Positions 1 through 59,409 of a stretch of 64,000 nt of DNA are shown piece after piece. Origin of the DNA: an uncultured bacterium (lineage in GTDB: Bacteria; Oederibacteriota; PGYV01; CAWJRG01); contig CAWJRG010000005.1 in NCBI GenBank assembly GCA_963845185.1, positions 512,001-576,000 of the forward strand, given 5' to 3'. A program made the translations under genes and the position numbers. Each line of letters begins with the position of its first letter. Position 1 is the stretch's first letter. The notes under the pieces are model-generated. The model worked only from the letters and a program-made list of their open reading frames with translations, was not told the origin of the DNA and did no database searches.

Positions 1-3000
1 GCGTATTTGTAGGCGTGCTCGTTGCAGTCCATGTTGGCGAACTGGTAGGCGTGAATGTCGGTGTATTTGTTGCTGAACTCGTCGGCGTCCACGTTGGTGT
101 ACTTGTCGGCGATACTGTAGGCGTGCAGAAACCCGCAAGCACGTTGAAATTATTGACTACAAAATAACCCAGTGTTCCTGTTGTTGAATTTGCGGCAATA
201 CCCACCCAGTATGTGGTATTCATGGCTATGGTCAGGGACGCAACCGGTATCCATGCAACCCCGTCGCTCGAATAATACCCTGCAAACATGGTACCAACCC
301 TCTGCAGTCTTACATATCCTATGCCAGCGTTGTTATAAGTACCATTCCCGCTGCTTGTATTTGTATTAGCCGCGCCGGTCGTGGCCCTATGGATAAAATT
401 ATATACCCCTGACCACTGCGCGCTTATGAAAGCAAAAGTGCTGTTTGTTTCAAGCGTTTCCCTCATCATAATCCCGGCCCTTGAGGAAGCTGCCAGGTTT
501 GAAACACCATCTATGACCAGGGTCACATCCATGTCGCCCGAAACCGGCTGGTATATGTATCTTAACGAATCTGAAGTGCTGCCCACCATTGGGCTGCCGG
601 CAGCCGTGATAGTCAGGGCTCCGCCTCCCTCTGTCTGCGATCCCGCCATGCCGGGAGTGCCTATGTCTGACGCGCCCCAAATGCCTGAATTAAACGAGCT
701 GCCGCTGAACGTGTCGCTCTGCACGCATTGCGGGATTATGGGGGTATCTGTTATTGTAATTGTCGCTGTCGCCGTCAAAGTCCCTGTTATCGTGAAAGTC
801 GGGCTTATCGTCCCTGTCCATGTCGGTGTATTTGTCGGAGTAAATGTCGGGCTTGATGTCCCTGTCCACGTCGGCGTGAATGTTGGGCTGTTTGTCCCTG
901 TCCAAGTCGGAGTATTTGTCGGTGTCCACGTTGGTGTGTTTGTTATCGTCCATGTCGGCGTATTTGTCGGCGAATCCGTCGGCGTCCATGTCGGTGTCCA
1001 CGTCGGTGTACTCGTAGGCGTATTTGTCGGCGAATCCGTCGGCGTCCATGTCGGTGTCCACGTCGGTGTACTCGTAGGCGTATTTGTCGGCGAATCCGTC
1101 GGCGTCCATGTCGGTGTCCACGTCGGTGTACTCGTAGGCGTATTTGTCGGCGTGAATGTCGGGCTAGATGTCAGTGTCCATGTCGGTGTGTTTGTCGGCG
1201 TTACTGTAAACGTCGGTGTCACTACTGTCACTGACTGCGAATCCCCTGCCGGCGCAGTGCAGAAATACGTTCCATTTACCACGCAGGGAAACGTCTGAAC
1301 CCCAGACGGCAATATCGCGTTAAATGTTATTATGTCAAAATTCGGAGTGCTGGCATTGTTCCATTGCGGACTGTATGTTACAAGTATGTTATTTCCGGGA
1401 CGGGTTATGCTTCCTCCCATCTGGCTTGCGGGTGTGCCTAATATTGATACCGCTCCCGGTACTCCTATTAATACGCTCGTTATCGGCCCATCCCCTACTG
1501 CGTCAACGTAATAACTGTATGTTACCGTGTCTCCTGCCACTGCCTGGTTCGGCTGGATGTACGTGTATGCCAAAGGCGTTGATGTTGGCGTCGCAGTTAT
1601 GCTCGGCGTTGCTGTTGGTGTCCATGTCGCTGTGTTCGTTGGTGTCCATGTTGGTGAACTAGTCGGCGTCCATGTTGGCGTGTCTGTCGGACTCGATGTC
1701 GCTGTAAATGTAGGTGTAAATGTTGGTGTTGTTGTAGATGTGGGTGTTAATATTATTACTGTCTGCGAAGACCCATTGGGCACTGGGCAGAGATTTCCGT
1801 TTACAGCGCTTATGTATGTTTCCGAAGGCCCGCTCGATATTGCGCTGAATGTTATTATGTCGAAATTCGGGTCGCTATTATCGTTCCATCCTGCTCCGTA
1901 TGTCACTGTTATTGTATTTGCTCCCAAAACTACTGCCCCTCCATTATTGCTTGTTGGTGTACCACCTGTTACTGTCACGCCCCCTGGTATTGTTATTACA
2001 AGGCTTGTTATCGGCCCATCCCCTGCCGCGTCTACATAATAACTATATGATACCGTATCTCCTTCTACTGCCACTGTCGGCTGAATATACGCGTACGCGA
2101 ATGGCGTCGATGTGTTTGTCGGCGTCGCTGTCGGCGTCACTGTATTTGTCGGCGTCCATGTCCCCGTATTCGTCGGCGTCCACGTTAGCGTACCCGTCGG
2201 CGTATTTGTTGGTGAACCCGTGGGCGTCCATGTAGGCGTATTCGTCGGCGATATTGTCGCCGTGCAGAAACCCGCGAGCACGTTAAAATTATTTACAGCA
2301 AAAGCACCGAGCCCTGCTACTGTTGAATTTGAGGCAATGCCCACCCAGTATGTGGTGTTCATGGCTATGGTTACGGCCCCAGCCGGTATCCAGTTAACCC
2401 CGTTGCTCGAATAATACCCTCCAAATACATTCCCCACCCTCTGCAGTCTCACATAGCCTGTGCCTGTGAATGTGCCACTGCTTGTATTCACGTTGGCCGC
2501 GCCGGTCGTTGTCCGGCGTATAAAATTATATACCCCGATATGCTGTGCCGAGACGCAGGCGAACGTGCTGTTTGTTTCAAGCGATTCCCTCATCATAAGC
2601 CCAGCCTTTGCGTTATTTGCTACGCTTGAAATGCTGTCTACAAAAATGGTCACATCCATGTCGCCTGAAACCGGCTGGTATATATACCTGAAAGTATCGG
2701 AGTTGCCGCCTGTCAGGTTTGTGCCGCCGTCGGCCATGATTTGCAGAACTCCGCCTCCTTCCGTCTGCGACCCGGCCAAGCCTGCGCCTATGTCTGACGC
2801 GCCCCATATGCTTGAATTAAACGTACTGCCGCCGAACGTGTCGCTTTGCACGCATTGCGGGATTATGGGTGTATCTGTTACGGTGATTGTCTGTGTTGCA
2901 GTCAATGTTCCTGTTAGCGTAAATGTCGGGCTCGACGTTCCTGTCCAAGTAGGCGTGAATGTCGGGCTCGTTGTCGGTGTCCATGTCGGTGTATTCGTCG

Positions 3001-4993
3001 GTGTCCATGTTGTCGTATTCGTCGGCGTGTTTGTTGATGTGAATGTTGGGCTTGCTGTGGGAGTCCATGTCGGCGTAATGGTCTGGGTTACAGTGAATGT
3101 CGGCGTCACCACTGTCACTGACTGCGAATCCCCTGATGGCGCGCTGCAGAAATATGTGCCGTTTACCACTCCCGGAAATGTCTGTATCCCTGCCGGCAAT
3201 ATCGCGTTAAATGTTATTATGTCAAAATTCGGAGTGCTGCCGTTGCTCCATGGCTGGCTGTATGTTACAAGGATGGTGTTTCCGGGCCGCGTTATGCTTC
3301 CACCCATATTACTAATGGGAGTGCCTATTATTGATACCACTGCCGGTACTCCTATCAGCAGGGTCGTTATCGGCCCGTCTCCGACAGCGTCAACGTAATA
3401 ACTGTATGTTACCGTGTCTCCTGCCACTGCCTGGTTCGGCTGGATGTACGTATATACCAAAGGCGTTGATGTTGGCGTTGCAGTTATAGTCGGCGTTGCC
3501 GTATATGTCAATGTCCATGTGCCTGTTGCAGTAAATGTCGGGCTCGATGTCGTTGTATTTGTTGGTGTCCACGTTGGTGTGTTTGTCGGCGTAAACGTCG
3601 GACTGGATGTTGGTGTCCATGTAGGTGTAAATGTTGGGCTAGTCGTCGGTGTCCATGTCAGCGTGCTCGTAGGCGTCCATGTCGGTGTATGAGTCGGCGT
3701 CCATGTTTGAGTAACAGTAAGCGTCGGCGTAACTACTGTCACTGACTGAGAATATCCGTTTGGTGCAGAGCATAAATATGTGTTGTTTATCAGGCTTGTA
3801 TATGCTTGTGTCCCGGCATCAGATATTGCACTAAATATTATTATGTCAAAAGGCGGGTCGCTTTCGTTGTTCCATTGCGGGCTATATGATACATTTATAT
3901 TCCCTCCCAGCAAGCTTACGCTTCCGCCAATACTGCTTGTTGGAGTGTCTGGTATTGATACCCCTTCCGGAATTTCTATTATCAGGCTCGTTATTGGCCC
4001 ATCCCCTGCCGCGTTAACATAATAACTGTATGTTACTTTATCCCCTGCCACCGCCACTGTCGGCTGGATATACGCGTATGCCACAGGTGTTGACGTAGGT
4101 GTAAATGTCACGGTTATGGTTGCTGTCGGCGTATTAGTCGGCGTCCAAGTTGTAGTATGTGTTGGTGTCCATGTCGGCGTGTTAGTCAATGTCCATGTCG
4201 GTGTCCACGTCGGGCTGTATGTCGGAGTATTTGTAGGTGTCGGCGCGACTTGTAATTCGATTTCCAGCATTGCACAACGGGATGCAACAGTAGAATTATA
4301 AGTCACAGAATATGACCCTGCAGCGCCTGTTGTTATATCGTGCCCTGCTCCGCGTATGTAATTGGTTGTATTTTCAATATTCCAGCGTTCATTGGCCGTG
4401 GTCGTAAATACCATATCCCCGCCGCTTCTTTCAACAAATAGTCCTGAAATCCAGCTGTTGTTCTGTGCTGTATTGAATGTGACAGTCAATGTATTAGCAG
4501 TGGTAGCGCCTGCACCGGAATTGGCAACTCCGTTATTGCCAATTGAACTCACACCGTCATATTCTATGACGCCCATGCTAATCATATCGCCGGCGACACC
4601 TGAAGTGTTAACATTGATAGTGTATGTACCGTTTGGCGGGTTTTGCAAATACCATATTTCGCCTTCAAGGCCGAGAGTATTACCTAAATAAGCTGATGTT
4701 TTCGTTACACAGTTAAAAGCATAGCCGTCATACGAAACGCCGGATATTGACAACCACGTTCCTGGAGCTGAAGTTTCCCTGATGCCGCAGCTGAATATTA
4801 ACATCCTGTTTGTATTGCTGCTCGTGGCATAGGTAAAAGATGGGTCGGCTGTATTTGCGGTTGTGCTGTCCATGTTGTAATAACTTATGTCGGCAAAAAC
4901 AATGCCGGGCATAAATATAATGAAAAATAAGACCGCAAATGCACTTATTGTGAAATGGAATCCCGGCTTTTTGAATAAAAACTTTTTTTTCAC
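1..4993 (-). CDS. Giant secreted multidomain surface protein with Thr/Pro(Trp) linkers, repeated beta-rich domains and ConA/LamG-like domains; 3' end outside window
   Basis: GAGG then GTG at 4993; translates [39 protein letters not shown] (signal peptide). The same frame reads T/P-rich linker sequence at the window start. Absent from the ORF track, consistent with no in-window stop. Confidence 0.9.
957..1152. repeat. Exact 60-bp tandem repeat x3 (plus partial) inside the Thr/Pro linker
   Basis: Lines starting at 961, 1021 and 1081 are identical. Confidence 0.95.
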
Positions 4994-32882: not shown

Positions 32883-33879
32883 CTATTGCGACCACCAGAC
32901 ATTGTTCAAACGGCTGCCGCTAAACCCGCCTATCACCCATAAAGCATTGTTATAAATTAAACTTGTATGATAGGCCCTTTCGCCAAACCCGGCTGCCGCG
33001 GTTAATTGTGTCCATTTCACGCCGTCGCTTGACCGCCATACGTCGCCAAAATAATTTGTACCGTTCAAACCTGCTATCACCCACATTTCGTTGTTATATA
33101 TAAAGCTTGTGTGGTAAGCCCTGGCGCTGAATCCGGCTACTGCTGTTGCCTGCGCCCATGACATCCCGTCGCTTGAGTTCCAGAATATCATTATAATATG
33201 TAACTCCGTTAAAACCTGCTATTACCCATATCATATTATTAAAAGCCACGCTTGCATGCCCGTACCGCTGGCTGAATCCGGCTGTTCCTGTAACCTCAGT
33301 CCATGAAACACCATTACTCGATTCCCATGCATCGTTATAACAGGAATTGCCGTCATACCCGCCTATTACCCACATTGCGTTGTTGTACACTGTGCTCGTA
33401 TGCAGATACCTCCCGCCAAAACCTGCAGTTCCGGTCACCTGCATCCACGAAGCTCCGTCGCTTGAATTCCATACATCGCTCATAGGGCCGCTGCTGCCGC
33501 TGTATCCGCCTATCACCCACATACTGTTGTTAAATACTGCGCTTGAAAGGTTATACCTTGCGCTGAATCCAGCTGTCGCGCAAACCTGCAACCATGCAGC
33601 CCCGTCGCTTGAGCTCCATACATCATTCAATAACCCTCCGGTATAATCACCGGCTATGATCCACATCTTGTTGTTATATGCTACGCTTGTGTGCCCGTAC
33701 CTGGCTGAGAATCCGGCTGACATAGTAGCGTCTGTCCAAAAAGCACCGGCGTTTGATGCCATAGGCGTACTTGTTGCTGCCGGTGATGGTGGTACCGTTG
33801 GATTCACTGTTTTTTTGCATGCCTGGAATGTTAATGCCATAAAAATAATAAAAAGAATAATCCCTGTCGTTTTCTTCAT
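32883..33879 (-). pseudogene. Kelch-like beta-propeller lipoprotein split by a +1 frameshift near 33184
   Basis: Lipobox FQAC; GFSARxxH..xNNxMWVIGG..NDVWxSSDG repeats continue across two ORFs; GAT ATT C TGG where GAT ATC TGG is expected. Confidence 0.8.
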
Positions 33880-40053: not shown

Positions 40054-40215
40054 GATATCGTTTGTTTTGTCAAGCTGGATAGCGCAGACAAAACATTACG
40101 ATATCTTGCACCCATTCCAGTCCGGGGCTTTAGCCAGTTAAATAATCCGGTGGATTATTTGACGGGTAGTTTCTCTAAAGTCATTTAATATAAAAACTGC
40201 CCAGACAAGTGGTGC
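40054..40215 (-). ncRNA. Leader motif A copy 1 (upstream of fadD), element B inserted in hairpin 1
   Basis: GCACCACTTGTC..GGACTGGAATGGGTGC AA GATATCGT AA TGTTTTGTC..GACAAAACA A ACGATATC, then GGAGG. Confidence 0.7.
40135..40204. mobile_element. Element B copy 1 (double hairpin, flanked by CAG repeats)
   Basis: Near-identical to 62642-62710. Confidence 0.7.
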
Positions 40216-45723: not shown

Positions 45724-46465
45724 ATGATTGAAATAAAAAATTTGCATGTAGAGGTTTACGGCAGGGAAATCCTGAATGGCATAAATATTACCATACCCGA
45801 CGGCGAAACCCACATACTTTTCGGGCCAAACGGCTCGGGCAAGACCTCCCTGCTCATGACCATAATGGGCTACCCTCAGTACAAAATCATAAAAGGCTCA
45901 ATCAAATTTAACTCAATCGAACTGAACGCTTTACCCGTAGACGCGAGGTTCCAAGTCAGGCATAGGCCTGTTTTTCCAGCGGCCGCCTGCAATAAAGGGC
46001 ATAAAGCTTTCCCAGATGATTGAAATCATAAAAACAGCCAGCGGAATCAAGATAGATTCCGCGGTCGCGGCAAAGGCCCTGAACCTGGGCCCGCTCATGG
46101 ACCGTGACATTAACTCCGGCTTCTCAGGCGGCGAGATAAAGCGCTCCGAGATGTTCCAGCTTTTCGCGCAGAAACCCATGTTCTTAATGCTCGACGAGCC
46201 GGAATCAGGCGTGGATGTGGAAAATATGAAGCTTTTAGGTGGCAAAATAAAACAGCTGCTCGAGCGCGACCTTGATAAAAAACAACGATCAAAAAGCGCC
46301 CTCATAATCACGCATACAGGTTTTATAATGGATTATGTCGACGCAGATGCCGGCTATACCATGCTCGAAGGCAGCATCAAGTGCAGGCATGACGCGAGGA
46401 AATTATTCGAGGATATACAGAAATACGGCTTCAGGGAGTGCGGCGTATGCAAAGACACAGCATAG
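45724..46465 (+). pseudogene. sufC: SufC/SmsC Fe-S assembly ATPase with a +1 frameshift near 45949
   Basis: GPNGSGKT in the first ORF; FSGGE, LDEPESGVD, ITH and C-terminal CGVC in the second; AGG TTCC AAG has an extra T. Confidence 0.85.
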
Positions 46466-47556
46466 AAGTTGATGAAAAAGACACGGCAAAGATAGAAAGG
46501 GCTGGTATAAATCTTGACGAGCAGGGCCGGGCAGGCTCATTTGTCATGTCAAATAGCAGGGTCACGCACGTTTCCATGAAACAGGAAGGCGTGGAAATGA
46601 TGCCCATCCAGGATGCCATGAAAAAATACCCTGAGTATGCCGATAAATTATGGACCATAGTCAATAAAGACAAGGATGAATTTACAAAAGACGCATATGC
46701 CGACACCCAGTCAGGCTATTTTATCCGTGTAAAAGCAGGCGTGAAAGCTTTCATGCCCTTTCAGGCATGCTTTTTTGTCAAGCAGGATAAGTTCAAGCAG
46801 AAAGTCCACAACTTCATAATACTCGAGGAAGCTTCTTCCCTCCATATAATAAACGGCTGCGCTGCCGCGTCATATCTCGCCGAAGGCTCGCACATTGGCG
46901 TGACTGAAATGTTTGTCGGCAAAAACGCGCGCCTGATGTACACCATGATACACGACTGGGCAAAAAACGTGGAAGTAAGGCCCAGGTCAGCGATAAAAGT
47001 GGAAGAAGGCGGCACTTACATATCAAACTACATAGCCTTAAGGGACACTAAAATCACACAGATGTTTCCCACTGCCGAGCTTGCAGGCCGCGGCGCAGTG
47101 GCAAAGTTTAATACACTTGTTTTAGCGCCGGAAGGCTCGGTTTACGACCTTGGGTCAAGGGTCCTGCTCAATGCCGAGGACACCAGGGCCGAAGTAATCA
47201 GCCGCTCCATTTCAGCCGGCGGGGACGTTTATGCGCGCGGCAAGCTCGAGGGCAACTCGCCAAAAATATTCGCGCACCTGGAATGCGACGGGCTCATGTT
47301 AAAAGATAAAGGAATTATTTCAGCCATACCCGAGCTTTCGACAAAATATGCGGATGTTAATATGTCCCACGAAGCGGCAATCGGCAAAATAGACGAGGAG
47401 CAGATTTTATATTTGATGTCCCGTGGCATATCAAAGTCAGAGGCCATATCAGCCATAGTGAGCGGCTTTATGGATGTGAAAATCTTCGGTCTGCCAACCG
47501 CCCTGGAAGAAGAAATAAAAAAAACAATTAAAAACCTCGAGGCCGGCTCGCTGTAG
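46447..47556 (+). CDS. sufB: SufB/SufD family (SmsB-like) Fe-S scaffold
   Basis: QKVHN, GC, VRPR, HLECDGL, HEAAIGKI...YLMSRG. Confidence 0.9.
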   Translation: MQRHSIEVDEKDTAKIERAGINLDEQGRAGSFVMSNSRVTHVSMKQEGVEMMPIQDAMKKYPEYADKLWTIVNKDKDEFTKDAYADTQSGYFIRVKAGVKAFMPFQACFFVKQDKFKQKVHNFIILEEASSLHIINGCAAASYLAEGSHIGVTEMFVGKNARLMYTMIHDWAKNVEVRPRSAIKVEEGGTYISNYIALRDTKITQMFPTAELAGRGAVAKFNTLVLAPEGSVYDLGSRVLLNAEDTRAEVISRSISAGGDVYARGKLEGNSPKIFAHLECDGLMLKDKGIISAIPELSTKYADVNMSHEAAIGKIDEEQILYLMSRGISKSEAISAIVSGFMDVKIFGLPTALEEEIKKTIKNLEAGSL

Positions 47557-47569
47557 CCGGTAAAATTTC

Positions 47570-50554
47570 CTATTTGCCTTGAATCTTTTCGATCATATCA
47601 TAAGCCTGTTTAACTCCCAGTTTTCCGGCTTTGTTTAAGTCTTCAAGTGCCCCCTGCCTGTCGCCCGTGAAGTATTTGACATACCCCCGGTTATAATAGG
47701 CATTCGCCTGCTTTGGATTAATCTCAAGAGCTTTGTTATAATCCTCAATCGCGCCATTGTAATCGCCTGATTTGGTTTTGGCATTTCCGCGGTTGCTGAA
47801 AGCTTCCGCATACTTCGGGTTAAGCTCTATCGCCTTGCTGTAATCCTCAATCGCGCCTTTGTAATCGCCTGATTTGGTTTTGGCAATCCCGCGGTTGTAA
47901 TAAGCCGCCTCATACTTTGGGTCAAATTCCAGTACTTTACTGTAATCCTCTATTGCCCCGGTATTATCGCCCGAACTTAATTTGGCTATACCGCGGTTGC
48001 TGTAGGCTTCCGTATACTTCGGTTTAATTTCTATTGCCTTGCTGTAATCCTTGATGGATTTTTTATAATCACCCATGCCATCTTCGGCATTCCCGCGGTT
48101 GTAATAAGCCGTAGAAAGATCAGGCGCAAATTCAACTGCCTTATTGCAATCCTCAAGCGCGGCTTTGTAGTCGCCCAATTTATATTCAGCAGCCCCGCGG
48201 TTGCAATAGGCTTCCGCATATTTCGGGTCTGATTCTATTGCCTTTGTATAATCCTCAATCGCGCCTTTATCGTCTCCCCGGCCGAATTTGGCATCCCCCG
48301 ACTCCAGATAATTCCGCATTTCACTATTGCCGGAATTAATCTGCTCAATGGCCTTTTTATCCGGGCTGCCGTATTTATCTGCATTTTCGAGCATTTCCTT
48401 CGCCATGGTTATATTCCCATCCTTTTGATAAACCTCTCCAAGCGCCTGATAAGCCTGCCAATAATCCTTTTTTAACTCAATAGCTCTTTTTAAATATTTT
48501 ATCTGGCTGTCTTCGTCGTTAAAGCCTTTGTAAATATTTGCCAGTTTATAATACAGAACCGGTTCATTTCCTTTCATTTCATCCTTAAAAGGGAAAAGCA
48601 TGGCTTTTTTATAAAGCTTCAGCGCCTCTGCCGGATTCCCGCCATTAAAAAGTTCATTGGCTTTAAGCATCATGCAAAACGAATAGGTTATGACAAGATC
48701 TGATGTTACCCTGCTGTAGTCAATATATTTATCATATAATCCGCGGTTATATGAATAAAGCTGAAAAATTTCCGGAGGAATTTGCTTCTTGTTTGTTAAA
48801 TATTCCTGCAGCAGTCCTTTTTGCACAAAATCATGCACCTTTAACTTATCCATAACCGGTGAATATGTGCTTTTGTATATTTCTATGCCGTTGACGGAAT
48901 AATAATCAATAATATTATTCAAATTGTAAGCCGGGGCCTTTTCCTTTACGGGAACATTTCCGAATTTTTTAACAAAATCATCTATTCCTGCCTGCAAGTA
49001 CAGGTCCCACATGCGCAAAAGTTTTATATCCTGCCTTTGTTTTTCAATAATTTGAACATAAAAAAACGGCATGAAATTATAATCGCCTTCGCAAAGAAAT
49101 AAGCTGTTCTTGTCCATGGTTTGCAAAGTATTGTGCCCAAAGTCATATGCCTGATAATTGTACCTGTTGTTGTTTTTTTCAAAATTTTTATATCCCAAAA
49201 ACAATATAAGCAAAAGTACTGTTGTTAAAAAACCGTATCTAAAGGCCTTTGTAGTGGAGCTCCCCGCTTTCATAAGCGGGACACCTTTAAAAAATTTTAT
49301 AATATGCTCCCTCCCCGGAGCGCTATCAATTCCCGCCTGACTTCGGCTGAGCTCAGTCGAAGGCCCTACAAGCGGGGTTTTTCGCGCAGCGGGGTCAAGA
49401 AATCCCGAAATCAAACACATGCCCGAGATAATAAAAAGCATTAAAATATATTGGGCAGGCATAAGAAAAATATCGGAAATCCATATCATGCTTTCCTCGC
49501 TGCGGTTGTAAAAAACTACAGCAATGCTGATTATTAAAAATGCGCCCAAATAAAAATAAAAAATTTCTTTGCTTTTTTTATATATAATATATGCGCCTGC
49601 AGGAATTAAAATCCACAGGATCGAATAATTGCTGAATAAAAGCACAAAAAATTCTTTTATCTGGTATGCATACAGGTGTAAACTCGGAGGCGGGACAATG
49701 CCGGTATATCCCGTTCTGAATATTGTCCACCAGAAATTTTCCCAAGTGTTTGGCCATGCCATAAAAACAAAAATGCTGCTGTTTCCCGACCTTATTGGCA
49801 GGTAAAGGTACGGGCTGAAACCCGCAAGCAGCAGCAATGCCGATGTCATGATATTTTCCAGTTTTATTCTTCCCCGGTATTTAAAAAACAAATATCCGAA
49901 TACCGGCAGCAGTATTATCATGCTCGGCCAGTGGTTTGTAAGCGAAAGCCCGAAAACATATGATATGAGATAAAGATATTTAATAGTGGAGCTTCCCGTC
50001 TTAACAGGCGATTCTCTAATATGCTCCCTCCCCGGAGCGTTATCAAATCCCGCCTCTACTGGTGGGGTTTTTCGCGTAGTGGGATTAAATCCTTTAAACA
50101 GCTCCATGCTCAAGTATATCAGTGCTCCGAAAAGCAAAAGATTTAATATGTAAATCCCGCCTTTTGCCTCTATCGCCTGGTTCCAGAAAATAAAAGACAA
50201 TGCCAGGATGAAAAATCCGGCGAAATTTATTATTTTATCTTCTCGGGCGAAAATCCGGAAAATAATTTGTTTTATAATAAAATAAGACAATAAAAGGACT
50301 ATTATGGCGAGGAATATGACAAAAGAATTTATCCTGAAAGCCGGCGAGCCAACCGGCAGCAGGGAAAACACTTTTGCCGCCATTGTAAAAAGCGGGTATG
50401 CGGGCGGATGGCATATGCCGAGGGTATACGCAGCTGTTATTATTTCTGGCGAGTCATTGTTTTTAAATGCGGGAAACATTGTATAAAGATATAATTGCGA
50501 TACCCCAATTAAACAGACTAATAATATTATAATTTCCTTATATTTCTTAATCAT
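47570..50554 (-). CDS. DUF2723 (TMEM260-like GT-C) membrane glycosyltransferase with C-terminal TPRs
   Basis: DSPE......LGICHPPAYPL, YLYLPIRS, EGDYNF; TPR array. Confidence 0.85.
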   Translation of the reverse strand: MIKKYKEIIILLVCLIGVSQLYLYTMFPAFKNNDSPEIITAAYTLGICHPPAYPLFTMAAKVFSLLPVGSPAFRINSFVIFLAIIVLLLSYFIIKQIIFRIFAREDKIINFAGFFILALSFIFWNQAIEAKGGIYILNLLLFGALIYLSMELFKGFNPTTRKTPPVEAGFDNAPGREHIRESPVKTGSSTIKYLYLISYVFGLSLTNHWPSMIILLPVFGYLFFKYRGRIKLENIMTSALLLLAGFSPYLYLPIRSGNSSIFVFMAWPNTWENFWWTIFRTGYTGIVPPPSLHLYAYQIKEFFVLLFSNYSILWILIPAGAYIIYKKSKEIFYFYLGAFLIISIAVVFYNRSEESMIWISDIFLMPAQYILMLFIISGMCLISGFLDPAARKTPLVGPSTELSRSQAGIDSAPGREHIIKFFKGVPLMKAGSSTTKAFRYGFLTTVLLLILFLGYKNFEKNNNRYNYQAYDFGHNTLQTMDKNSLFLCEGDYNFMPFFYVQIIEKQRQDIKLLRMWDLYLQAGIDDFVKKFGNVPVKEKAPAYNLNNIIDYYSVNGIEIYKSTYSPVMDKLKVHDFVQKGLLQEYLTNKKQIPPEIFQLYSYNRGLYDKYIDYSRVTSDLVITYSFCMMLKANELFNGGNPAEALKLYKKAMLFPFKDEMKGNEPVLYYKLANIYKGFNDEDSQIKYLKRAIELKKDYWQAYQALGEVYQKDGNITMAKEMLENADKYGSPDKKAIEQINSGNSEMRNYLESGDAKFGRGDDKGAIEDYTKAIESDPKYAEAYCNRGAAEYKLGDYKAALEDCNKAVEFAPDLSTAYYNRGNAEDGMGDYKKSIKDYSKAIEIKPKYTEAYSNRGIAKLSSGDNTGAIEDYSKVLEFDPKYEAAYYNRGIAKTKSGDYKGAIEDYSKAIELNPKYAEAFSNRGNAKTKSGDYNGAIEDYNKALEINPKQANAYYNRGYVKYFTGDRQGALEDLNKAGKLGVKQAYDMIEKIQGK
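49253..49393 (-). mobile_element. Element C copy, 141 bp, in-frame inside the DUF2723 gene
   Basis: Encodes PAARKTP...APGREHI...GSST; homologous to 49985-50083. Confidence 0.8.
49985..50083 (-). mobile_element. Element C copy, 99 bp, in-frame inside the DUF2723 gene
   Basis: Encodes PTTRKTP...APGREHI...GSST; CCACTA at both ends. Confidence 0.8.
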
Positions 50555-54491: not shown

Positions 54492-54508
54492 TAATCAGTA
54501 TTATAACC

Positions 54509-54605
54509 GCACCACTTGTCCCTCGCAAGCTCGGGACTTGAGCGGGTACAAGATTCCGTAAGATTTTATCTTCGCTGTTGACGCTTGATAAAATCAACGG
54601 AATCT
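54509..54605 (+). ncRNA. Leader motif A copy 2 (upstream of glpK)
   Basis: GCACCACTTGTCCC..GGGACTTGAGCGGGTAC AA GATTCCGT AA GATTTTATC..GATAAAATC A ACGGAATC, then GGAGG. Confidence 0.75.
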
Positions 54606-59310: not shown

Positions 59311-59409
59311 GTACCACTTGTCCAAACCTACAGTCTGGACTTGAGCGGGTACAAGATAGCGTAATGTTTTGTCAGAGCCTGTTGACGTCTCGACAAAACA
59401 AACGCTATC
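59311..59409 (+). ncRNA. Leader motif A copy 3 (upstream of response regulator)
   Basis: GTACCACTTGTCCA..TGGACTTGAGCGGGTAC AA GATAGCGT AA TGTTTTGTC..GACAAAACA A ACGCTATC, then AGGAGG. Confidence 0.75.

What the first reader, a model, noticed from the sequence alone, without database searches (positions are those of the whole stretch)
49253..50083. Palindromic DNA element (C) inserted twice in-frame in one membrane protein gene
Two GC-rich multi-hairpin copies (99 bp and 141 bp) interrupt the AT-rich DUF2723 gene in the same frame and orientation. They add PTTRKTPPVEAGFDNAPGREHIRESPVKTGSST and PAARKTP...APGREHI...KAGSST to loops between TM helices. This is analogous to Rickettsia palindromic elements, which create new peptide segments. 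The terminal hairpin followed by CCAC loosely resembles IS200/IS605-family right ends (inference).
Basis: partly seen in the sequence, partly recalled or inferred. Interest (0 to 1): 0.75.

Follow-up and report, generated by a model that had tools for sequence, protein, structure and literature searches.

The report
Palindromic mobile element inside a gene
A small GC-rich, hairpin-forming mobile DNA element sits twice, in frame, inside one membrane glycosyltransferase-like gene and adds two extra loops to the protein, much as Rickettsia palindromic elements do, but in an unrelated uncultured bacterium.

Summary
Window 49985-50083 (99 nt) and 49253-49393 (141 nt) are two copies of one GC-rich (0.55 against 0.36) multi-hairpin element. 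Both lie in the same orientation and frame inside a 994-aa DUF2723/TMEM260-like + TPR gene (47570-50554, minus strand).

- **Homologs:** 16 of 17 aligned homologs lack the first insert and 17 of 17 lack the second. The net insertions are exactly 33 and 47 codons, with no target duplication and no terminal inverted repeats.
- **Other copies:** the same peptide occurs in frame in a UDP-glucuronate decarboxylase-like protein, a radical-SAM protein and two small ORFs from other contigs. This makes it a dispersed element, not an ancestral protein segment.
- **Left flank:** five of six independent sites are preceded by Phe-Asn (TTYAAY); the sixth is preceded by CTTGAC.
- **Anatomy:** a left hairpin 16-17 nt from the end, a right hairpin exactly 10 nt from the end, and similar stems in both. 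This matches ends-only derivatives (PATEs) of IS200/IS605 single-strand transposons.

No transposase and no further DNA copies could be examined. Verdict: a new family of a known kind (RPE-like in-frame selfish DNA). The peel-and-paste mechanism is inferred.

The parts
47570..50554 (-). Host gene: 994-aa membrane protein with an N-terminal TMEM260-like/DUF2723 (GT-C type) domain and C-terminal TPR repeats. The ORF is intact.
   Evidence: ORF. Pfam PF11028 (82 bits) plus many TPR families. It keeps all 59 invariant columns of the 18-sequence alignment.
49985..50083 (-). Element copy A, 99 nt = 33 codons (protein residues 158-190). The hairpins are degenerate. The same site is occupied in homolog P0002.
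49253..49393 (-). Element copy B, 141 nt = 47 codons (residues 388-434). The hairpins are intact. This copy is unique to this protein.
50084..50089 (-). Left (5', sense-strand) flank of copy A, TTTAAT. It encodes the host's own Phe-Asn.
   Evidence: Phe-Asn is present at this position in 10 of 16 homologs without the insert.
49394..49399 (-). Left flank of copy B, CTTGAC (Leu-Asp).
49332..49376 (-). Copy B left subterminal hairpin (8-bp stem). Its foot lies 17 nt from the left end, and it encloses the nested palindrome.
   Evidence: Folds (element positions 18-62).
49341..49362 (-). 22-nt palindrome forming the core of the 27-nt block that is present only in copy B. The block follows the conserved GTAG directly.
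   Evidence: I3, 93% complementary; gap in the alignment; GTAG position.
49306..49321 (-). Conserved central core of copy B (5-bp hairpin; encodes Ala-Pro-Gly-Arg-Glu-His).
50023..50038 (-). Same conserved core in copy A.
49263..49280 (-). Copy B right subterminal hairpin (7-bp stem, 4-nt loop). It is followed by a 10-nt tail (49253-49262) that ends the element.
   Evidence: element positions 114-131 and 132-141.
49995..50008 (-). Copy A right hairpin remnant (5 bp, one G-T pair), again followed by a 10-nt tail (49985-49994).
   Evidence: element positions 76-89 and 90-99.

Best explanation
This is a small, non-autonomous, GC-rich mobile DNA element that has landed twice in one gene. Both copies lie in the one sense frame that has no stop codon, so they are read through and add two hydrophilic, net-positive, probably disordered loops between transmembrane helices. 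Shown: it is a repeated sequence, absent from most homologs, present in unrelated proteins of related genomes, inserted as whole codons with no duplication. Inferred (about 0.4-0.45 on its own): it is an ends-only derivative of an IS200/IS605-type transposon (a PATE). A Y1 HUH transposase supplied in trans would move it as single-stranded DNA and paste it 3' of a TTRAY target on the lagging-strand template without gain or loss of host bases. Selection then keeps only copies whose length is a multiple of three, in the open frame, in tolerant loops or tails. Copy B looks recent, with intact hairpins. Copy A looks like an old or decaying copy.
For: - **Repeat status:** two copies share a 23-nt exact core, with 0 of 100 shuffles matching, and GC is 0.55 against 0.36.
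- **Absence from homologs:** 16 of 17 lack A and 17 of 17 lack B.
- **Other hosts:** a peptide profile found 4 proteins among 442 candidates: the window protein, P0002, P0121 (SDR/UDP-glucuronate decarboxylase-like, whose homology to PDB 4gll ends at residue 310, after which the element supplies the C-terminus) and P0122 (radical SAM + B12-binding). A scan of 1.84 billion representatives added two small ORFs, P0123 and P0124. P0121 and P0122 sit on the contigs that also hold the insert-free homologs P0004 and P0006, so at least four genomes carry the element in different genes.
- **No duplication:** the host residues on both sides are all accounted for against insert-free homologs, and the net gain is exactly 33 and 47 codons.
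- **No inverted ends:** one search found no inverted pair between the ends.
- **Left flank:** Phe-Asn precedes 5 of 6 independent sites; the DNA reads TTTAAT and CTTGAC.
- **Anatomy:** the left hairpin foot is 16-17 nt from the end and the right hairpin is 10 nt from the end in both copies, and both stems start CCCGCTT in copy B. IS608 has 19 nt and 10 nt, inserts 3' of TTAC and neither gains nor loses DNA (PMC3201880, passages). ISDra2 uses TTGAT and the lagging-strand template (PMC8944449, passages). The PATE definition is in PMC3119063 (passages).
- **Strand:** the plus strand has GC skew -0.096 across the window. The sense strand would therefore be the lagging-strand template, as that model predicts.
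- **Loops:** both inserts lie between helices, are coil, and have pLDDT below 50.
- **Level of conservation:** most differences between A and B change the amino acid. Conservation is therefore at the nucleic-acid level, not the peptide level.
Against: - No transposase of any kind appeared among the 54 of 61 window ORFs (90 aa or longer) that were scanned. The rest of the genome could not be read.
- Only two DNA copies were seen. The other five are known as peptides only, so hairpins, ends and flanks of those copies are unverified.
- The genome-collection scan with the core found only 6 chance matches, so copy number is unknown and may be low.
- The Phe-Asn codons could in part belong to the element in the other hosts. 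Only for site A, and the Phe of P0121, is it shown to be host sequence.
- Guide-to-cleavage-site pairing, which defines IS200/IS605 ends, was not shown.
- The GC skew may reflect gene strand rather than replication.
- Copy A does not fold better than shuffles as DNA.
- The low pLDDT of the inserts is partly forced, because the alignment is empty there (mean pLDDT 66, pTM 0.42).
- Translation of the inserts is assumed, not shown.
Confidence: 0.55

Rival explanations
1. It is a palindromic selfish repeat of the RPE/REP kind. It would spread by another route than IS200/IS605 peel-and-paste: a REP-associated tyrosine transposase, recombination, or gene conversion between copies.
For: In-frame palindromic repeats in unrelated genes are what RPEs and intragenic REPs are (PMC10969869 and PMC3733652, passages). 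A GTAG tetranucleotide sits at the same position in both copies. In copy B a 27-nt palindromic block follows it directly, which recalls GTAG-tagged REPs. Window copy A is closer to the copy in P0121, a different gene and genome (20 of 22), than to the copy at the same site in P0002 (15 of 23). Copy-to-copy conversion could produce that pattern.
Against: The GTAG lies in the loop of the left hairpin, not outside a 20-40-nt palindrome. The two main hairpins are in direct, not inverted, orientation. The conserved left flank and the 10-nt right tail are not explained by this reading. The CGTC tag of RPEs is absent from the ends; it occurs once, internally, in copy A only (sequences printed).
Confidence: 0.3
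2. It is a classical MITE, cut and pasted by a DDE transposase that recognises terminal inverted repeats.
For: The size (99-141 nt) and the palindromic content are typical of MITEs (PMC10969869, passages).
Against: There are no terminal inverted repeats (ends). There is no target duplication. The 2-nt identities beside the element (AT/AT and AC/AC) cannot be duplications, because the pre-insertion gene would then be out of frame.
Confidence: 0.04
3. It is a protein-level module: a short peptide kept by selection for a function and moved between genes by recombination. On this reading it is not selfish DNA.
For: The peptide is recognisable in six proteins, and the APGREH stretch is kept in 5 of 7 copies. 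At site A the insert peptide is 15 of 23 identical between the window protein and P0002 over its first part, and 18 of 48 columns are invariant across the three peptides aligned. That is not clearly below the 62-66% identity of the whole proteins.
Against: The hosts are unrelated in fold and location: a membrane GT-C protein, a cytoplasmic SDR and a radical SAM protein. One copy merely replaces a C-terminus. There is no Pfam match. The conserved residues coincide with hairpin stems. A and B differ mostly by amino-acid-changing substitutions and by blocks that are themselves palindromes. The GC content is foreign to the host gene.
Confidence: 0.05
4. It is removed or skipped at the RNA level (intron-like excision or translational bypass), so the protein lacks the inserts.
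For: The element is strongly structured and sits inside a gene. IS200/IS605-linked introns are known: search listing of 10.1101/2023.11.20.567912 (abstract start only); their name, IStrons, is recalled.
Against: All internal copies are whole numbers of codons and free of stops in the host frame, which removal would not require. At 99-141 nt it is far too short for a group I or II intron. Rfam gave no match.
Confidence: 0.03

Closest known systems
Rickettsia palindromic elements (RPE)
   Same: They are short (about 100-150 bp) palindromic repeats inserted in frame into unrelated genes. Each family encodes a conserved peptide, and the insertions are compatible with the host protein's fold (PMC10969869, passages).
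   Different: The host here is not Rickettsia; the nearest named homologs of the host protein come from Goldbacteria-type MAGs. The CGTC end tag reported for RPEs (PMC3733652) is absent. Only seven copies are known here, against dozens for RPEs. Sequence similarity to RPE families was not tested.
PATEs: ends-only derivatives of IS200/IS605-type transposons (Haloquadratum; Halanaerobium)
   Same: There are no inverted ends and no target duplication. Near-terminal palindromes resemble each other, and the distance to the end is longer at the 5' side than at the 3' side. A 4-5-nt targeting sequence lies at the 5' side. The element is too short to encode a transposase, and elements as short as 52 bp are described (PMC3119063; PMC7290912).
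   Different: PATEs are described as non-coding elements. In the passages I read, none is reported as read through in frame inside genes. No parent IS or TnpA was seen here.
Intragenic REPs (GTAG- or CGTC-tagged palindromes; RAYT-associated)
   Same: They are palindromic repeats sometimes found wholly inside ORFs of known proteins (PMC3733652). A GTAG is conserved in both copies.
   Different: REPs are single 20-40-nt hairpins with the tag outside the stem, often paired head to head. This element is a 99-141-nt composite of three or four hairpins with asymmetric ends.
GC-rich palindromic clusters in AT-rich yeast and fungal mitochondrial genes
   Same: They are GC-rich mobile palindromes in AT-rich DNA, some inside coding sequence (recalled; PMC4478555 seen only as a search listing).
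   Different: They are organellar, have different sequences, and move by a different and unknown mechanism.

Membership tests
Rickettsia palindromic elements (RPE) | Short palindromic repeat inserted in frame in unrelated ORFs and encoding a conserved peptide | tested here: met
   Two copies in one gene. The same peptide is in frame in an SDR and a radical SAM protein.
Rickettsia palindromic elements (RPE) | Sequence membership in one of the Rickettsia RPE families | not tested
   No RPE sequence was on hand. Rfam gave no match to anything. The host protein's named relatives are Goldbacteria-type MAGs.
Rickettsia palindromic elements (RPE) | CGTC tetranucleotide tag at one end (PMC3733652) | tested here: not met
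   The ends are CCC... and ...CCACT in both copies. CGTC occurs once, internally, on the plus strand of copy A only.
PATE / IS200-IS605-derived element | No terminal inverted repeats | tested here: met
   There is no inverted pair between the ends.
PATE / IS200-IS605-derived element | No target-site duplication; insertion without gain or loss of host bases | tested here: met
   Net gain is exactly 33 and 47 codons, with all host residues matched in insert-free homologs.
PATE / IS200-IS605-derived element | Subterminal hairpins at both ends, alike in sequence, farther from the 5' end than from the 3' end | tested here: met
   Copy B has a left foot at 17 nt and a right hairpin 10 nt from the end, and both stems begin CCCGCTT. 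Copy A has the same distances (16 and 10 nt) but degenerate stems.
PATE / IS200-IS605-derived element | Conserved 4-5-nt target immediately 5' of the left end | tested here: inconclusive
   The DNA reads TTTAAT and CTTGAC. Phe-Asn precedes 5 of 6 independent sites at the protein level. Only site A is proven to be host sequence.
PATE / IS200-IS605-derived element | A parent IS with the same ends and a Y1 TnpA (and/or TnpB) in the genome; cleavage sites paired with guide bases | not testable with these tools
   No transposase was found in 54 of 61 window ORFs.
Classical MITE (DDE transposase) | Terminal inverted repeats and target-site duplication | tested here: not met
REP / BIME (RAYT-associated) | GTAG tag directly beside a 20-40-nt palindrome, usually extragenic and in inverted pairs | tested here: inconclusive
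   GTAG is conserved at element positions 25-28 in both copies but lies inside the left hairpin's loop. In copy B a 27-nt palindromic block follows it. Overall layout and length do not fit a REP.
Intein or self-splicing intron | Intein splicing motifs, or a group I/II intron RNA fold | tested here: not met
   The insert peptides have no Pfam match at E up to 1. Rfam gave no meaningful match at E up to 10 and none at gathering score. The length is only 99-141 nt.

The most novel reading that the evidence does not exclude
This would be an ends-only IS200/IS605-type element specialised for silent residence inside coding sequence. It would carry a stop-free frame, insert scarlessly 3' of TTRAY on the sense (lagging-template) strand, and be able to leave just as scarlessly. 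The same site in the DUF2723 gene would then have been hit twice independently, or emptied once in the paralog P0003. That reading fits the best tree (P0002,(P0001,P0003)) and the fact that window copy A is closer to the copy in P0121 than to the copy at the same site in P0002. [quoted passage not shown]
Probability: 0.2. Interest if true: 0.65.

Novelty: new member of a known kind. Interest (0 to 1): 0.45.

Why it matters
In-frame palindromic selfish DNA is best known from Rickettsia, and its means of movement has never been settled. Here the same phenomenon appears in an unrelated, uncultured lineage. The insertion junctions can be read exactly against insert-free homologs: no duplication, no inverted ends, a conserved left flank, and IS608-like hairpin-to-end distances. 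If the link to single-strand (Y1 HUH) transposition holds, it offers a testable mechanism for how such elements enter genes without destroying them. It also shows how new loops and C-termini are added to proteins. In practice, these inserts inflate gene models, break domain matches and can mislead homology-based annotation of MAGs.

Tried and rejected
- **Genome scan:** a scan of genome contigs with the 20-nt degenerate core gave 6 loci. In 0 of 6 did the match extend beyond the pattern, so these are chance hits.
- **Opposite-strand frame:** a profile of the opposite-strand open frame scored no protein among 30 candidates of 84-2000 aa. This is weak evidence that antisense in-frame copies do not exist.
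- **Plasmids and phages:** blastn of copy B against both collections gave no match.
- **Rfam:** only chance-level hits at E up to 10, and nothing at gathering score over the whole window.
- **Representative library:** it returned only two small ORFs and did not return P0001, P0002, P0121 or P0122. It therefore under-reports insert-bearing members of conserved families.
- **The listing of cluster members:** Accessions and organism names of the carriers stayed unknown.
- **2-nt target duplication:** the AT/AT and AC/AC identities beside the copies were considered. I rejected this because the pre-insertion gene would be out of frame.
- **Strand-specific structure from G-T against C-A pairs:** rejected, because copy A favours the plus strand and copy B the minus strand at the left hairpin.
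- **Terminator on the antisense strand:** on the plus strand the left hairpin is followed by TTTTT, which could explain why only sense-oriented copies survive in genes. The consensus terminator scan did not call it, so this stays an idea.
- **One or two insertions at site A:** the tree could not decide. The best tree is (P0002,(P0001,P0003)) with support 85/75. The grouping (P0001,P0002) was not rejected (p-AU 0.21), nor was (P0002,P0003) (p-AU 0.0855).
- **AlphaFold model:** it is only moderate (mean pLDDT 66, pTM 0.42). I use it for loop position, not for fold claims.
- **Literature:** six searches listed no paper on such an element in Goldbacteria-type bacteria or in DUF2723 genes. None of the 10 papers listed holds either word. 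This is not proof that it is unpublished.
Full report
**What is there**

The minus-strand ORF 47570-50554 encodes a 994-aa protein. It has an N-terminal TMEM260-like/DUF2723 membrane domain (PF11028, 82 bits) and a long C-terminal TPR array. Two GC-rich blocks interrupt its AT-rich membrane part:
- copy A, 49985-50083, 99 nt;
- copy B, 49253-49393, 141 nt.

They share an exact 23-nt core. A 21-nt part of that core occurs twice in the window, against 0.00 expected, and 0 of 100 shuffles reached two matches. In an alignment with flanks, similarity begins and ends at the block borders. B differs from A by two extra internal blocks of 27 and 15 nt. A blastn-short search found no third copy in the 64 kb. 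GC is 0.545 and 0.546, against 0.361 for the surrounding part of the gene. Both blocks lie in the same orientation and the same frame.

Of the six frames, only the one in use and one antisense frame are free of stops in both copies.

**Are they insertions?**

I aligned the protein with 17 of the 201 other hits. These were the best full-length ones, the four paralogs from the same 804,866-nt contig, and two named Goldbacteria proteins.
- Insert B is absent from 17 of 17.
- Insert A is absent from 16 of 17.
- The exception is P0002 (810 aa, 62-66% identical, from a 334,805-nt contig). It has a diverged 33-aa copy at exactly site A.

Host residues on both sides of each insert line up with the insert-free homologs with nothing missing or extra. 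The net gain is exactly 33 and 47 codons. This rules out a target duplication. The 2-nt identities next to each copy (AT/AT, AC/AC) cannot be duplications, because the pre-insertion gene would then be out of frame. No inverted repeat joins the two ends.

**Other copies**

| Search | Examined | Result |
|---|---|---|
| Profile of the three insert peptides against proteins of 84-2000 aa | 442 candidates | 4 hits: window protein, P0002, P0121, P0122 |
| HMM scan of representatives | 1.84 billion | 2 small ORFs: P0123 (81 aa), P0124 (83 aa) |
| Antisense-frame peptide profile | 30 candidates | none scored |

- **P0121** (348 aa) is a UDP-glucuronate decarboxylase-like SDR. Its match to PDB 4gll ends at residue 310, and the element then supplies a new 38-aa C-terminus.
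- **P0122** (475 aa) is a radical SAM + B12-binding protein. Its insert lies just after the Pfam radical-SAM match.
- P0121 and P0122 lie on contigs of 908,139 and 496,631 nt. Those contigs also hold the insert-free DUF2723 homologs P0004 and P0006.
- **P0123 and P0124** carry the peptide too, the second with an apparent frame change near its end.
- The representative scan did not return P0001, P0002, P0121 or P0122. That library hides insert-bearing members of conserved families, so these counts are a floor.

At least four related genomes therefore carry the element in different genes. That is the signature of a mobile repeat, not of an ancestral protein segment.

The scan of genome contigs with the core gave six loci, all chance matches (0 of 6 extend beyond the pattern). 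The source genome is not in that collection. Copy number and intergenic copies remain unknown. Plasmid and phage collections gave nothing.

**Anatomy (sense strand of the host gene)**

Copy B folds into two domains.
- **Left domain:** an 8-bp hairpin whose foot is 17 nt from the left end. Its loop holds a conserved GTAG, followed by the 27-nt palindromic block that A lacks.
- **Centre:** a conserved 16-nt core that is itself a 5-bp hairpin.
- **Right domain:** a 7-bp hairpin followed by a 10-nt tail that ends the element.
- Both main stems begin CCCGCTT.

Copy A has the same distances (16 nt and 10 nt), but its stems are eroded.

| Copy | RNA z (minus / plus strand) | DNA z (minus / plus strand) |
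|---|---|---|
| B | -2.24 / -3.35 | -2.21 / -2.62 |
| A | -1.33 / -2.74 | +0.94 / -0.57 |

This fits B being recent (unique to this genome) and A being old or decaying (site shared with P0002). Most A/B differences change the amino acid. What is conserved is therefore nucleic-acid structure, not a peptide. The peptides match no Pfam family, and the DNA matches no Rfam family.

**Left flank**

- The residues just before the element are Phe-Asn in window site A, P0002 (the same site), P0121, P0122, P0123 and P0124. That is 5 of 6 independent sites. Site B has Leu-Asp.
- At the DNA level the two flanks read TTTAAT and CTTGAC, that is TTRAY.
- At site A the Phe-Asn is the host's own: 10 of 16 insert-free homologs have it there.
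- In P0121 the Phe aligns with the human enzyme.
- The right flanks show no such regularity.
- The gene has 19 TTRAY sites on the sense strand, so the motif alone does not explain why this gene was hit twice.

**How it most likely works**

*Shown:* it is a dispersed repeat, inserted as whole codons, scarlessly, in one orientation and frame, in unrelated genes.

*Inferred:* it is non-autonomous, because it is far too short to encode a transposase, and none is present in 54 of the 61 window ORFs of 90 aa or more that were scanned. Seven ORFs were not scanned: five in the repeat region at 381-3692 and two that overlap larger ORFs.

Its features are those of ends-only IS200/IS605 derivatives (PATEs; PMC3119063, passages):
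- no inverted ends;
- no duplication;
- similar subterminal hairpins in direct orientation;
- a longer 5' than 3' distance to the end;
- a short conserved sequence 5' of the left end.

The distances resemble IS608. There TnpA cleaves 3' of TTAC, 19 nt before the left hairpin, and 10 nt after the right hairpin, and it rejoins the donor without gain or loss (PMC3201880, passages). ISDra2 uses TTGAT and, like IS608, the lagging-strand template (PMC8944449, passages).

The window's plus strand has GC skew -0.096 throughout, and 41 of 61 ORFs are on the minus strand. The sense strand of this gene is therefore plausibly the lagging-strand template, which is where such a top strand should land. Gene-strand effects on skew make this weak support.

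Survival inside genes then needs three things: a length divisible by three, the stop-free frame, and a tolerant position.

I put the general claim (mobile, in-frame, read through) at about 0.9. I put the peel-and-paste mechanism at about 0.4-0.45.

**Effect on the protein**

- Hydropathy places insert A (residues 158-190) between the helices at about 134-152 and about 190-210. It places insert B (388-434) between the helices at 364-382 and 437-455.
- The AlphaFold model has mean pLDDT 66 and pTM 0.42. It shows both inserts as coil with pLDDT below 50, between helices 130-152/188-204 and 365-385/433-461. The low confidence is partly forced, because the alignment is empty there.
- The inserts are hydrophilic and net positive (+1 and +4, counted from the peptides).
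- By helix counting from a cytoplasmic N-terminus, as in GT-C enzymes, both loops would be cytoplasmic. This is an inference from family knowledge.
- The protein keeps all 59 invariant columns of the alignment, so it is probably still functional.
- The same contig holds at least four paralogs (P0003, P0022, P0029, P0035). That redundancy may explain why one copy tolerates two insertions.

**History of site A**

P0001, P0002 and P0003 form a clade (support 100/100), but its inner order is open.
- The best tree is (P0002,(P0001,P0003)), with support 85/75.
- The grouping (P0001,P0002) is not rejected (p-AU 0.21).
- The grouping (P0002,P0003) is not rejected either (p-AU 0.0855).

Over the first 22-23 residues, window copy A matches the copy in P0121 at 20 of 22, but the copy at its own site in P0002 at only 15 of 23. 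One old insertion, two hits at a hot spot, or one insertion followed by a scarless loss in P0003 all remain possible.

**Comparison and novelty**

Functionally this is the RPE phenomenon: selfish DNA read through in protein-coding genes (PMC10969869, passages). Intragenic REPs are also on record (PMC3733652, passages). It is not shown to be an RPE. The CGTC end tag is absent, the host is different, and sequence similarity was not tested. It meets most defining features of a PATE that can be tested here, but the decisive one, a parent IS or TnpA with the same ends, could not be tested.

I rate it a new member of a known kind. Six literature searches listed nothing on such an element in these bacteria or in this gene family, which does not prove that it is unpublished.

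**What stayed unchecked**

- The rest of the source genome.
- The DNA of the five copies known only as peptides.
- The closed metagenome and viral contig collections.

Noticed in passing
window 45724-46465 (+): A SufC-like ABC ATPase gene upstream of sufB/D (46438-47556) is split into two overlapping ORFs (45724-46023 and 46016-46465). The reading frame appears to shift near 45935-45945. This could be a real frameshift or an assembly error.
   Followed up: partly
window 54505-54590 and 59312-59400 (+); weaker copy at 40122-40161: A conserved intergenic motif of about 60-80 nt (a 40-nt part is 85% identical between the two sites) lies upstream of a glycerol-kinase-like gene (54619) and a response-regulator gene (59427). 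No Rfam family matches it at gathering score. It may be a shared operator or leader.
   Followed up: partly
window 49301-49329 and 50018-50046 (-): Both element copies contain the same weak sigma-70-like match (TTGATA, 17 nt, CATATT; 9 of 12) in the sense orientation. It is a consensus match only.
   Followed up: no
window 50049-50076 and 49332-49386 (+ strand reading): Read on the plus strand (antisense to the host gene), the element's left hairpin is followed by TTTTT, like an intrinsic terminator. The consensus scan did not call it. It could explain why only sense-oriented copies are seen in genes.
   Followed up: partly
window 1-4200: This is a highly repetitive region with 12-nt periodicity and several 200-300-nt repeats 60-88% alike (families D1-D5, D7, D10-D12). 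It is presumably one or more large repeat-protein genes.
   Followed up: no
window 32915-33750 (-): Five tandem units of about 144-147 nt (D6 and D14) correspond to Kelch repeats of the ORF 33094-33879.
   Followed up: no
same contig as the window (proteins P0003, P0022, P0029, P0035): The source contig encodes at least five DUF2723 + TPR paralogs. Only the one in the window carries the element.
   Followed up: partly
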